From positions 1-17,760 of the IMG/VR virus record IMGVR_UViG_2778261423_000004: 17,760 nt of DNA. One strand, given 5' to 3'. Positions 6,001 through 9,000 of the stretch are shown here, piece by piece. The position numbers were made by a program. Position 1 is the first letter of the stretch; every line of letters starts with the position of its first letter. The DNA comes from a virus. Taxonomy: Duplodnaviria > Heunggongvirae > Uroviricota > Caudoviricetes.

Positions 6001-9000
6001 TCAGTGTGCGGCTGGCGGCATCGATGGACAGGATGCGTCCGCCGGTCAGGGTCCCGGCATAGTCGTTATCACAGATTTCAATGATGTCACCGGGCGTGTG
6101 CCGCAGCCCCTGTGACCCGAGCGTGAAATCCACCGTCTGCGTTTCCAGCAGTTCGGTCTTTATCACCCACAGTCCGGCACGGTGAGCCTGACCGCGGCTG
6201 GTACAGCCGAACGCGTCCATCTTCAGCAGGTTGCGCCCGTAGCGCAGGATGGCGTCCGGGTCTTCCACCAGTTCCGTGGACGTCTGCCAGCCGTTCTGCG
6301 GGTCAGTGTAATTCACCTCCACCGCCGTGTGCCGGTCCTTCAGGGCACTGAAGCTGTAGCGGAACCCCACGCCGTTATCATCCACCACCACATCGCTGTT
6401 GGTGTACGGCCACACCACATCCGACGGACGGTCCTGAACGAACGTCAGCGTCTGGCCGTTCCATACCGGCATACAGCGCATCGCCGAGCAGAAATCCCCC
6501 AGGACATCCCACACCTTACGCTGCTGTGACAGGTACGCATTAAAGGTCATCCGCGGCTCTGTGCCCCCGAAACCATCCGGGACCGTCTGGTCGCAGTACT
6601 GCCCGATGGCATACAGCGCCCACTTGTCCACATCCGCCGCCCCCAGGCGTTTTCCCATCCCGTAGCGCGGGTGGGTCAGCATGTCCCACAGGCACCAGGC
6701 CGGGTTATTGCTGTATGCCGGTTTCAGACTCCCGTCCCAGATACCGCTGTAGGTGCGTTTTTCCGGGTCATAGTTTGACGGCACCTGAATGATGCGGCCG
6801 CGGATATGGTAGTTCACCACCATCTGCTGGCCACCGAACTGCTCCGCATCCACCTGCAGCCCCACAATGGCCGTGTTCGGGTAGCACTGTTTCACATCGA
6901 TGATTTCGGTGTATGACGACCACAGCGTTCTGTTCTGCAGCTGGTCCGTGGTACTGTCCGCCGTCACCCTGACCACCCGGATGTTAAAGGGCCGCTCAGG
7001 GAGATTATTCAGAATCACCGACGTCAGGTACTGCGAGGTGGTCTTGCCGTTAATGGTGACATCCTTCTCCGTCACCCAGTTACCGTTACGCTCAAGCTGA
7101 ATCAGCAGGCGGACAGAAGAAGGATTACGGTCACCCTTTGAGGTGGTCTCCACCAGTGACTGCACCCCGAAGGTGACCCGCAGACGGTCAATGTTCGCTG
7201 ACGTGATGGTGCGCGTCACCGGCTTTGCCTTCGTCACCTCCACGCCCAGTGCGGTTTCTGCCCCGGAGGACTCAAAGCCTTCCGGCGGTGTCTGCTCCTG
7301 CTCCCCGGCACGCCAGACGGCGGTCACACCGTGTATCACGGGATTACCGTCCGTGTCCGTCAGCGGGGTTTTGTTCACCAGAATACTCTGCAGTCCCTTC
7401 ACCGGACCTTCCACCGGTCCCTCACCAATGGCATCAATCACGCTCATCATCTGCGTGGATTTGAGATTGTCCTTCGCCTCACGCGGTGTGTGCCCCTTGC
7501 CGCCCCCTTTACCCACTCTGTCCCCCTCTCCTGTCTGATGTCTGATGTCTGAATCTGTTTATGCCCAAAAACAACAGGCACCCCGGAGGGTGCCTGTGTC
7601 ATGACGGAATAAAATTTCTGAAATTCTTCACATTTCTGCAAATTGCCTGTAGCCGCAATAATGACGCTGCGTTACTTTTTTGATGCCTGAAAAATAACTC
7701 CATAACGTTAATCTTCATCGTTCTCTCCCGCAGCTCCGCTGACTCTGCGGGATTTTTTTATCCCTTAAACCCGGCCTGATATTTTCTGTCCTCTGCCACC
7801 GATATCCCGCAGCCCCTTCCTGTGAATAAAAATTCTGAATTTATTCACATTTCTGCAAATTACCTGTGGCGCTCATAATCACCATACGTTACAATTCGCC
7901 CGCTGATTACAGGCAATAATCAAAACTACTCCTTAAGGTGACTATTCGTTTCTCCCGTCAATATCCAGGTGTATTACGGGAGATTTTTTACTTCCCCCCT
8001 CAGTATCACGGACATTACTGACGCCGCTCTGTCGCCAGAGACGAAAGCCCGGGATAAATAAAAACTCTGATTTTCTTCACATTTTCCGTCATTCTCCGTG
8101 GCAGAGTGCATTCCGGCAGGTTACAGTTTCTTCGGGTCAATAAAAATAAAACGCCAACAGGTTAGTCAACATCGTTCTCTTCCCGCAGCACGGAGTACTG
8201 CGGGATTTTTTTATCCCCTGAACCCGCATGATGCCTTCTGTCCTCTGCCACCGATATCCGGCCCTCCCTTCCCGTGAATAAAAATTCTGAGTTTATTCAC
8301 ATTTCCGCACACTGACTGTAGTGCTCATAATCACGCTGCGTTACAGTTCATCTGCCAGAATAATGAAAAATTCCTTAAAGTTAATCTTCGTATCTCTTCC
8401 CGCAGCTACAGAGCACTGCGGGATTTTTTTTATTTTTCATCCCCGCCCGATAACCACCACTTTCCCGTCACCGCCCTCATCACGGGTGCTGATGTCCTGG
8501 GATATCCGTCGTGAACCAACCAGCATTTCACCGTAAGGCACCGGCACCGGATTCCCCTGAGCAATCATGTTGTCCAGTGACGAAAAATACGTGTTCTGTT
8601 TACCGTTATCCGTACTTTTGTATTCCGGCGTCTTTGCCTTCGGGGCCAGCATCTGGGCCACACCACCCAGTGCCATTGCAGAGCCCATGGAAAACATGAT
8701 GTTGCTGGCTGCAATACCGATACCCGGCATCCAGATAGCTGCCGCAACCAGCGCAACGCCAAGCACGGCCTGAAACACTCCGCCACTTTTGGCACCTTCT
8801 GCCCGGGGAACCAGATGAATGACATCCCCCGGGTTCAGTGGCTCATGCAGTCGGGGCGATATCTGGTCCGGCGCGGTATCCTCACCGGCAATACGTATCT
8901 GGTACCAGCCTTCGTTCATCTGACGGCGGAATCCCGGCACCTGCAGCGACAGGGCACGGATGGCCTCCGCTGCCGTGTTCACATACAGACTGATGCGGCG

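What the first reader, a model, noticed from the sequence alone, without database searches (positions are those of the whole stretch)
7600..8436. Non-coding insert between tail genes I and J: tandem array of four terminator-capped units, candidate antisense-oriented sRNA gene cluster
In lambda, as I recall, I and J are essentially adjacent; here about 840 bp of non-coding DNA separates them. It resolves into four related units of ~160-235 bp. Each has a conserved AT-rich 5' motif, a variable body with no credible ORF, and a canonical plus-strand intrinsic terminator (7-8 bp GC stem plus T6-T8). The terminators work only on the plus strand, antisense to the late operon. Shared ends with variable bodies is the pattern expected for paralogous small RNAs with different seed regions. 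Hfq-dependent sRNAs and anti-sRNAs encoded in lambdoid prophages of pathogenic E. coli have been reported, but I cannot tell from sequence whether these units match any named one. I found no clear sigma-70 -35 element: the conserved cATAATc segment is a plausible -10, but the 5' ends are unknown.
Basis: partly seen in the sequence, partly recalled or inferred. Interest (0 to 1): 0.82.

Follow-up and report, generated by a model that had tools for sequence, protein, structure and literature searches.

The report
Four tandem PasB-family prophage sRNA genes
The 920-bp gap between tail genes I and J holds four diverged tandem copies of a prophage small-RNA gene that others have already validated under two names (EcOnc22-24 in EHEC, PasB in EPEC), so the RNA family is known but the four-gene array appears to be undescribed.

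Summary
The I-J gap (7517-8436) contains four plus-strand units, antisense to the tail operon. Each unit has a 28-nt AT-rich box, a body of about 90-105 nt and an intrinsic terminator.

Unit 1 is 94-98% identical to EcOnc22/23/24 of E. coli O157 Sakai, an ~85-nt RNA that cross-links to Hfq, is seen on Northern blots and is destabilised without Hfq. PasB of EPEC E2348/69 lies at the same I-J position, is Hfq-dependent and has 37 RIL-seq partners. Units 1-4 are 57-72% identical to PasB.

A profile built only from single-copy relatives plus these two validated RNAs hits exactly the four units (E 4e-19 to 7e-7). The family is not in Rfam.

Most related prophages carry one unit. Some carry two or three. 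67 of 5,426 complete E. coli genomes, mostly non-O157 STEC, carry the four-unit array. Each unit is closest to a different single-copy allele, so this is not a recent duplication.

Units 1, 2 and 4 keep a -10 element. Unit 3 does not. The proposed seed is intact in units 1 and 4 and altered in units 2 and 3.

Expression of this particular array has not been tested.

The parts
3821..7516 (-). Tail tip / host specificity gene J (GTG start at 7516). This is the flank on the promoter side of the array.
   Evidence: ORF. Pfam J domains (FNIII-A_GpJ, Ig_J, Ig_GpJ_C and others).
7564..7597 (-). Intrinsic-terminator-like hairpin on the late-operon strand: 10-bp stem, 7 G-C pairs, 4-nt loop, then UUGUUUUUGGG. 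It lies 48 nt upstream of the J start. It occurs once per locus and is not part of the repeated unit.
   Evidence: Terminator scan. The same hairpin is found once, on the J side of the units, in 41 fetched loci with 1-4 units.
7608..7759 (+). Unit 1, EcOnc22 type. Box 7608-7635; -35-like TCTGCA 7635-7640; -10 AATAAT 7657-7662; predicted RNA about 7669-7759 (91 nt); terminator stem 7727-7733 / 7745-7751, then U7.
   Evidence: The RNA part is 94-98% identical to the Sakai Sp15 EcOnc22 locus. Profile hit E = 3.8e-19. Fold z = -3.1.
7825..7989 (+). Unit 2, the most divergent. Box 7825-7852; TCTGCA 7852-7857; -10 CATAAT 7874-7879; predicted RNA about 7886-7989 (104 nt). It has a different, longer terminator stem (7952-7964 / 7971-7982), then U6.
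   Evidence: Profile hit E = 7e-7 over the 3' two-thirds. The nearest single-copy relative is L047 at 79%. Stem differences from the other units are compensatory at 2 pairs.
8057..8212 (+). Unit 3. Box 8057-8084. At the family's -10 position it has GTGCAT (8106-8111), which is not a usable -10. Predicted RNA part about 8119-8212 (94 nt); terminator stem 8182-8188 / 8198-8204, then U7.
   Evidence: Profile hit E = 2.4e-12. The nearest single-copy relatives (L066, L074; 76-78%) carry TATCAT at this position.
8277..8431 (+). Unit 4. Box 8277-8304; TCCGCA 8304-8309; -10 CATAAT 8326-8331; predicted RNA about 8338-8431 (94 nt); terminator stem 8399-8405 / 8416-8422, then U8. It ends 5 nt before the stop codon of I.
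   Evidence: Profile hit E = 4.6e-19. The nearest single-copy relative is L056 at 84%.
7760..7824 (.). Spacer after unit 1. It is homologous to the spacer after unit 3 (8213-8276), giving the array a partial 452-bp period.
   Evidence: Family D2 (144 nt, 79% identity). Local alignment score 106 against a null of 20 +/- 4.
7990..8056 (.). Spacer after unit 2. It is unrelated to the other two spacers.
   Evidence: scores are within the shuffled range.
8437..9081 (-). Tail assembly gene I. This is the flank on the terminator side of the array.
   Evidence: ORF. Pfam Lambda_tail_I.

Best explanation
The I-J gap holds a moron, that is, extra DNA with its own promoter and terminator inserted between two phage genes. 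Here it consists of four tandem, diverged paralogues of one prophage sRNA gene family. That family was described independently as EcOnc22/23/24 in EHEC O157 Sakai and as PasB in EPEC E2348/69.

Each unit is a separate transcription unit on the strand opposite the late tail operon. It has an AT-rich upstream box, a sigma-70 type promoter whose -10 lies 6 nt before a conserved GCGUUA, a largely unstructured RNA of about 85-105 nt, and an intrinsic terminator with a U6-U8 tail.

The RNAs are most likely made in the lysogen independently of late transcription. They would bind Hfq through the U-tail and a central A-R-N stretch. They would act in trans by pairing a C/U-rich single-stranded stretch just 5' of the terminator (consensus GUUAAUCUUCAU, with an upstream ACUCCUUAA) to host and virulence mRNAs.

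Units 1 and 4 keep this stretch. Units 2 and 3 have changed it, so the array probably supplies both a higher dose and additional target specificities.

What is shown here: the anatomy, homology to the validated RNAs, copy-number variation, and promoter and terminator conservation. What is taken from papers on homologues: Hfq binding, discrete transcripts and trans partners. What is inferred: expression of units 2-4, the identity of the seed, and any division of labour between units.
For: Location and strand match the validated RNAs. The EcOnc22, EcOnc23 and EcOnc24 peaks lie in the I-J gaps of Sp15, Sp14 and Sp11. The probe matches window 7707-7729 over 23 nt. PasB coordinates lie in the E2348/69 I-J gap on the opposite strand.

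Published properties of the homologues are as follows. EcOnc22 gives an ~85-nt Northern band and is destabilised in delta-hfq. PasB is 83 nt, changes by log2FC -6.8 in delta-hfq, and has 37 RIL-seq interactions including ler, perB, bfpB, bfpI, ftsZ and galE.

Homology is significant. RNA-part identities are 94-98% for unit 1 against EcOnc22 and 57-72% for units 1-4 against PasB. A profile from 21 single-copy or validated members hits only the four units in the 17.7-kb window, at E 3.8e-19, 4.6e-19, 2.4e-12 and 7.2e-7.

The promoter position is conserved. The -10 is fixed in 65 unique units, and many relatives have TTCACA-16-TATAAT. The window has AATAAT, CATAAT and CATAAT in units 1, 2 and 4.

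All four units have terminators, with compensatory changes in the unit-2 type. All four also have an ARN4m1 motif at the same relative position and a U6-U8 tail.

The locus behaves as a moron. The gap is ~57 bp in lambda-type loci, ~240 bp with one unit, ~424 bp with two, ~715 bp with three and ~910-929 bp with four. G+C is low in the gap.

The array is maintained. 67 of 5,426 complete genomes carry it at 97-99% identity.
Against: There are no expression data for this array or for the unit-2, unit-3 and unit-4 subtypes.

The window promoters are weaker than those of relatives: the -35 matches only 3 of 6 positions, and the promoter scan found nothing. Unit 3 lacks a -10.

No structure other than the terminator is supported. 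Fold z-scores for units 2-4 are only -0.65 to -1.05.

The seed assignment is weak. The best PasB-target duplexes all fall in PasB nt 30-67, but their energies are no better than with shuffled targets. The hexamer clustering at nt 49-58 is reached by 30 of 500 shuffles.

The 5' ends are uncertain by about 15 nt. My promoter-based start gives 98 nt for PasB, against the published 83 nt.

The high identity of the array among the 67 genomes may reflect recent shared ancestry rather than selection.
Confidence: 0.78

Rival explanations
1. The RNAs act mainly in cis. They are fully complementary to the I-J intercistronic part of the late mRNA. Their role would be to pair with that transcript, or to collide with late transcription, so as to tune J (tail tip) expression. 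Trans targets would be secondary.
For: The units are always antisense to the tail operon and always at the I-J junction. A terminator-like hairpin on the late strand lies between the array and J in every locus. Four convergent promoters would add to any interference.
Against: PasB forms Hfq-dependent chimeras with many unlinked mRNAs in RIL-seq. The RNAs overlap neither coding sequence nor the J ribosome-binding site: the nearest RNA starts about 150 nt from the J start. Lambda-type phages with similar I and J genes have no unit. Late transcription of lambdoid phages is Q-antiterminated, which is established knowledge.
Confidence: 0.12
2. Most of the array is inert. One unit (1 or 4) would be a working sRNA gene and the others decaying copies left by unequal recombination between prophages. 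The terminators would serve at most as insulation.
For: Unit 3 has no -10, and the window's -35 elements are poor. Units 2 and 3 have altered the family's most conserved single-stranded block. Related junctions contain a promoter-less copy downstream of sodC. There is no expression evidence for the array.
Against: Every unit keeps an intact terminator, U-tail and A-R-N stretch. Each unit's subtype also exists as the sole copy at the junction in other prophages, usually with a good promoter: L047, L066/L074 and L056. Arrays of two and three units share the same subtype order.
Confidence: 0.1
3. The gap is the decayed remnant of a protein-coding moron (such as the sodC found at this junction in related prophages), or it encodes small proteins.
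For: The same junction carries a Cu,Zn superoxide dismutase gene in L061-type prophages and in a Citrobacter prophage. ORFs of up to 71 aa can be drawn in the gap.
Against: A tblastn search with SodC against window 7401-8600 gives only noise (E = 2.1). DNA similarity to the sodC junction is limited to the sRNA part. No ORF is shared by the four homologous units.
Confidence: 0.01

Closest known systems
EcOnc22 / EcOnc23 / EcOnc24 of E. coli O157:H7 Sakai (Tree et al. 2014, Mol Cell, PMC4104026)
   Same: They occupy the same I-J gap on the same antisense strand, with the same box, -10 position and terminator. Unit 1 is 94-98% identical over the RNA. These RNAs cross-link to Hfq, give an ~85-nt Northern band and are destabilised without Hfq.
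   Different: Sakai has one unit per prophage, with identical copies in three prophages. The window has four different units in tandem. No function or target has been published for EcOnc22-24.
PasB of EPEC E2348/69 (Pearl Mizrahi et al. 2021, Sci Adv, PMC8550237; Zhu, Shabalina and Storz 2026, bioRxiv 10.64898/2026.05.13.724894)
   Same: It has the same genomic position and orientation and the same overall RNA layout: GCGUUA 5' end, U-run, A-R-N stretch, ACUCCUU, GAUCUUCAU and a CCCGCAG/CUGCGGG terminator. It is Hfq-dependent with trans partners.
   Different: Identity to the window units is only 57-72%. PasB has a consensus promoter (TTCACA-16-TATAAT), whereas the window promoters are weaker. 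The 2026 survey used blastn with word size 28 and reports low diversity and usually one variant per genome. It would not have collected these units, and it does not mention tandem PasB arrays. Table S6 of the 2021 paper lists EHEC homologues for PasA and PasD1 but none for PasB.
AgvB / AsxR anti-sRNAs of EHEC prophages (Rfam RF02702, RF02703)
   Same: They are prophage-encoded, Hfq-binding, short RNAs found in related groups with conserved 3' parts and variable 5' parts.
   Different: They sit at a different locus (downstream of PR'/stx), are 51-60 nt long and have no sequence relationship. There is no Rfam match at gathering or at E <= 10.
Tandem paralogous sRNA genes such as OmrA/OmrB and PrrF1/PrrF2 (my own knowledge; both are cited)
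   Same: They are adjacent, independently terminated paralogues that share ends and differ internally.
   Different: Those are core-genome pairs, and this is an analogy only. Here there are four copies, inside a prophage structural operon, and each is closest to a different allele from another prophage.
Phage morons (Juhala et al. 2000, as cited), including the sodC moron at this junction
   Same: The insert is an independent promoter-terminator unit placed between genes that are adjacent in relatives. It has lower G+C and is oriented against the late operon. sodC occupies the same site in relatives.
   Different: The cargo is non-coding and multiplied fourfold.

Membership tests
PasB / EcOnc22-24 prophage sRNA family | The gene lies in the gap between tail genes I and J of a lambdoid prophage, on the strand opposite to them. 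| tested here: met
   The window flanks are I and J by Pfam. The same arrangement holds for EcOnc22-24 and for PasB.
PasB / EcOnc22-24 prophage sRNA family | Sequence homology to the experimentally validated RNAs over the transcribed part. | tested here: met
   A profile from 21 single-copy or validated members, excluding all array loci, hits unit 1 at E 3.8e-19, unit 4 at 4.6e-19, unit 3 at 2.4e-12 and unit 2 at 7.2e-7, and nothing else in the window.
PasB / EcOnc22-24 prophage sRNA family | Own promoter, with a -10 at the conserved position 6 nt before GCGUUA. | tested here: inconclusive
   Units 1, 2 and 4 have AATAAT or CATAAT at that position but only 3 of 6 matches in the -35. Unit 3 has GTGCAT. 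Relatives have TTCACA-16-TATAAT. The generic promoter scan found none.
PasB / EcOnc22-24 prophage sRNA family | Rho-independent terminator with a U-tail at the 3' end. | tested here: met
   All four have a hairpin followed by U6-U8. The stem is kept through compensatory changes in the unit-2 type.
PasB / EcOnc22-24 prophage sRNA family | A discrete transcript of about 83-85 nt whose stability depends on Hfq. | not testable with these tools
   Published only for the Sakai and E2348/69 copies. The window units carry an ARN4m1 motif and a U-tail, which is consistent with Hfq binding.
PasB / EcOnc22-24 prophage sRNA family | Base-pairing in trans with mRNAs through a single-stranded seed upstream of the terminator. 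| tested here: inconclusive
   The conserved block GUUAAUCUUCAU is unpaired in the folds. It is intact in unit 1, has 1 change in unit 4, 3 in unit 3 and 5 in unit 2. Complementarity of PasB nt 30-67 to six published partners is not better than with shuffled targets.
AgvB / AsxR anti-sRNAs and any Rfam family | A match to the family's covariance model. | tested here: not met
   No Rfam 15 family reaches gathering score in the window. The best hits at E <= 10 are unrelated families with E of 1.4 or worse.
Phage moron | An insert with its own promoter and terminator between genes that are adjacent in related phages, with deviating composition. | tested here: met
   The gap is ~57 bp in lambda-type loci and 239-929 bp with units. 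G+C is 43-48% against 55-63% in the flanks.

The most novel reading that the evidence does not exclude
The I-J junction may be a recombination-driven sRNA cassette site. The shared promoter box and terminator would let prophages stack heterologous PasB-family alleles. Some STEC lineages would then express up to four Hfq-dependent sRNAs with different seeds, and therefore different regulons, from one locus. This would be a prophage counterpart of multi-gene sRNA families such as Qrr. The family as a whole would be far more diverse than the published BLAST survey indicates.
Probability: 0.25. Interest if true: 0.6.

Novelty: new variant of a known kind. Interest (0 to 1): 0.42.

Why it matters
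Prophage sRNAs help wire horizontally acquired virulence genes into host regulation. In EPEC, PasB forms Hfq-dependent chimeras with ler, perB and bfp mRNAs.

This analysis makes three points that I did not find stated in the papers I could search.

- EcOnc22-24 (2014) and PasB (2021) are the same gene family at the same phage position.
- The family is much more diverse than a word-size-28 BLAST survey shows. There were 65 distinct unit sequences in 86 loci.
- The gene can be stacked into arrays of two, three or four diverged paralogues. The four-unit form is present in about 1.2% of complete E. coli genomes, mostly non-O157 STEC.

The family has no Rfam model, and the gap had no annotation in the two RefSeq records whose feature tables I inspected (Sakai and FORC_041), although 803 of 5,426 complete genomes have at least one match. 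A model for it would close an annotation gap.

If units 2 and 3 are expressed, their altered seeds offer a natural experiment on how new sRNA specificities arise.

Tried and rejected
- **Rfam.** No hit at gathering score, and only noise at E <= 10.
- **AgvB/AsxR and PasA/PasC/PasD.** These sit at different loci near PR', the lysis genes or Q, so they are not this element.
- **Coordinate check on EcOnc22.** The published peak coordinates seemed to fall on the hairpin near J rather than on the probe site. The AgvB1 probe shows that paper coordinates are about 130-145 nt lower than NC_002695.2. The peaks lie inside the I-J gap either way.
- **Probe match.** The published Northern probe matches only over 23 of its 33 nt. 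The rest differs, possibly because of PDF text extraction or because the probe was designed on another copy.
- **Conserved structure in the RNA body.** RNAalifold supports only the terminator, and single-sequence folds of units 2-4 are no better than shuffles.
- **Spacers as remnants of the 3' end of gene I.** Alignment scores were 25-30 against a null of 20 +/- 4, so this is not convincing.
- **Remnant of sodC, or small-protein genes.** No support.
- **Seed mapping from six published PasB partners.** The localisation is suggestive but not statistically supported.
- **Other species.** GTDB species representatives gave no units in Shigella, E. ruysiae, E. albertii or Citrobacter I-J junctions at E <= 1e-3. 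The hits under odd organism names look like E. coli or lambda contamination.
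Full report
**Observation.** The window carries a lambda-like tail operon on the minus strand. ORF 3821-7516 is J and ORF 8437-9081 is I, both confirmed by Pfam. The 920 bp between them (7517-8436) has no ORF shared among its repeats. 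Its G+C is 43-48%, against 55-63% in the flanks.

A 28-nt AT-rich box occurs four times, on the plus strand only, at 7608, 7825, 8057 and 8277; none is expected by chance. A terminator arm plus T-run occurs four times, ending at 7759, 7988, 8212 and 8430, against 0.08 expected. Each unit folds into a strong 3' hairpin followed by U6-U8. The four units align over their whole length, and their transcribed parts are 59-74% identical. In lambda-type loci the I-J gap is only about 57-60 bp.

**What it is.** Rfam has no model for it. BLAST shows that Stx phages and O157 prophages carry one such unit between I and J, for example VT1-Sakai at 96.4% identity to unit 1.

Two published data sets identify the unit.

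- *EcOnc22-24.* Tree et al. 2014 (PMC4104026, Table S2) list Hfq-CRAC peaks EcOnc22 (Sp15), EcOnc23 (Sp14) and EcOnc24 (Sp11) as homologues. EcOnc22 gives an ~85-nt Northern band and is destabilised in delta-hfq. All three peaks lie in the I-J gaps of those prophages, on the strand opposite the tail genes. The reverse complement of their probe matches the units, and window 7707-7729, exactly over 23 nt. Paper coordinates are about 130-145 nt lower than in the current RefSeq record. That places the peaks on the RNA body and the 5' terminator arm.
- *PasB.* PasB of EPEC E2348/69 (PMC8550237, Table S6: minus strand, 1466343-1466261, 83 nt) lies in that strain's I-J gap, between I ending at 1466255 and J starting at 1466496 on the plus strand. 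It drops by log2FC -6.8 in delta-hfq. It has 37 RIL-seq interactions, including ler, perB, bfpB, bfpI, ftsZ and galE.

Table S6 names EHEC homologues for PasA and PasD1 but none for PasB. I found no paper that links PasB with EcOnc22-24.

**Membership of the four units.** The unit 1 RNA is 94-98% identical to EcOnc22. Units 1-4 are 72, 57, 66 and 72% identical to PasB. A profile built only from 21 single-copy relatives plus PasB and EcOnc22, with every array locus left out, finds exactly four hits in the 17.7-kb window: unit 1 at E = 3.8e-19, unit 4 at 4.6e-19, unit 3 at 2.4e-12 and unit 2 at 7.2e-7.

**Family anatomy.** I fetched 116 loci through protein I and scanned them with a unit profile. 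Together with the window, the Sakai loci and VT1-Sakai, 86 sources carry at least one unit directly after I, always antisense. These gave 65 distinct sequences.

The -10 sits at one fixed alignment position, 6 nt before a nearly invariant GCGUUA. Many members, PasB included, have TTCACA-16-TATAAT. The window has TCTGCA-16-AATAAT in unit 1, TCTGCA-16-CATAAT in unit 2 and CATAAT in unit 4. Unit 3 has GTGCAT where its closest relatives have TATCAT.

The conserved RNA features are, in order:
- the 5' GCGUUA;
- a U-run;
- an A-R-N stretch, with ARN4m1 present in all four units;
- ACUCCUUAA;
- the block GUUAAUCUUCAU;
- the terminator.

Only the terminator is supported as structure. Two of its pairs change in a compensatory way in the unit-2 type.

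**Copy number.**

| I-J gap (bp) | Content |
|---|---|
| ~57 | no unit (lambda type) |
| ~240-345 | one unit |
| ~424 | two units |
| ~715 | three units |
| ~910-929 | four units |

Among 5,426 complete E. coli genomes, 803 have a match. 67 carry the whole four-unit array at 97-99% identity, mostly non-O157 STEC from humans, cattle and food.

Each window unit is closest to a different single-copy allele: EcOnc22 at 98%, L047 at 79%, L066 at 78% and L056 at 84%. The spacers after units 1 and 3 are homologous, while the middle spacer is not. The array therefore looks assembled from distinct sublineages, or anciently duplicated. It is not a recent amplification.

The 2026 survey of Pas sRNAs used blastn with word size 28 and coverage above 75%. 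It reports low PasB diversity and usually one variant per genome, and it does not mention tandem arrays. The units found here would fall outside that search.

**Mechanism.** The best-supported reading is that each unit is an independent moron: promoter, Hfq-binding sRNA, terminator. It would be expressed from the prophage against the direction of the late operon and would act in trans.

The most conserved unpaired block lies just 5' of the terminator. This is where Zhu et al. also place the PasB seed. It is intact in unit 1, has 1 change in unit 4, 3 in unit 3 and 5 in unit 2.

I tested PasB against six published partner fragments. The best duplexes all map to PasB nt 30-67, and complementary hexamers cluster at nt 49-58. 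Neither result exceeds shuffled controls convincingly: energies are within 0.3-2.7 sd, and 30 of 500 shuffles reach the hexamer clustering. The seed therefore remains an inference.

Expression of units 2-4 is also an inference. Unit 3 may depend on read-through or may be silent.

**Rivals.** A mainly cis-antisense role on the I-J part of the late mRNA cannot be excluded. It is less likely, given PasB's trans partners and the absence of overlap with coding sequence or the J ribosome-binding site. Partial decay of the array is plausible for unit 3. A remnant of a coding gene, or small-protein genes, is not supported.

**Verdict.** The RNA family is already known under two names. The tandem four-paralogue architecture, the breadth of the family and the EcOnc22-PasB identity appear to be new, within the limits of the library I could search. 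Interest is moderate.

Noticed in passing
window 7564-7597 (minus strand): There is a strong intrinsic-terminator-like hairpin on the late-operon strand: 10-bp stem, then UUGUUUUUGGG. It lies between the sRNA array and the J start codon. It occurs once per locus and is conserved in 41 fetched loci whatever the number of units. Its role is unknown. It may insulate J from stray sense transcription in the lysogen.
   Followed up: partly
L061 4673-5530 (and L071, L073, L079 and others); L014 4646-5365: In related prophages the same I-J junction carries a Cu,Zn superoxide dismutase gene (sodC) antisense to the tail genes; the gap is 854 bp, or 711 bp in a Citrobacter prophage. In the L061 type, sodC and its own hairpin are followed by a PasB-like RNA part and terminator that lack the family promoter. 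That RNA might be made by read-through or as a 3'UTR-derived RNA.
   Followed up: partly
window 7533-7553: The heptamer GTCTGAT is repeated about 2.9 times in the J leader, just upstream of the J ribosome-binding site. The Sakai Sp15 locus has one repeat fewer.
   Followed up: no
window 7822-7848 and 8274-8300: A perfect 9-bp inverted repeat, GTGAATAAA-N9-TTTATTCAC, lies inside the promoter box of units 2 and 4 only. Most family members have TCTTCAC on the right arm, so the dyad is subtype-specific. It could be a regulator-binding site or could be chance (read).
   Followed up: no
L127 (NZ_CP016628.1 2668325-2688245): In strain FORC_041 the array-bearing prophage sits next to a truncated ompW gene and yciEFG, that is, at the ompW integration site. 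RefSeq annotates nothing in the I-J gap.
   Followed up: no
L007, L017-L034 and other loci from genome contigs: Many 'hits' to protein I in unrelated organisms (Streptomyces, Pseudomonas, Shewanella, Bacillota MAGs and others) lie on short, low-coverage contigs carrying phage lambda or E. coli prophage sequence. They look like contamination of those assemblies.
   Followed up: no
Tree et al. 2014 Table S2 versus NC_002695.2: Genome coordinates in that paper are about 130-145 nt lower than in the current RefSeq record of Sakai, at least from 1.94 Mb onward. Anyone mapping EcOnc sRNAs needs to allow for this.
   Followed up: partly
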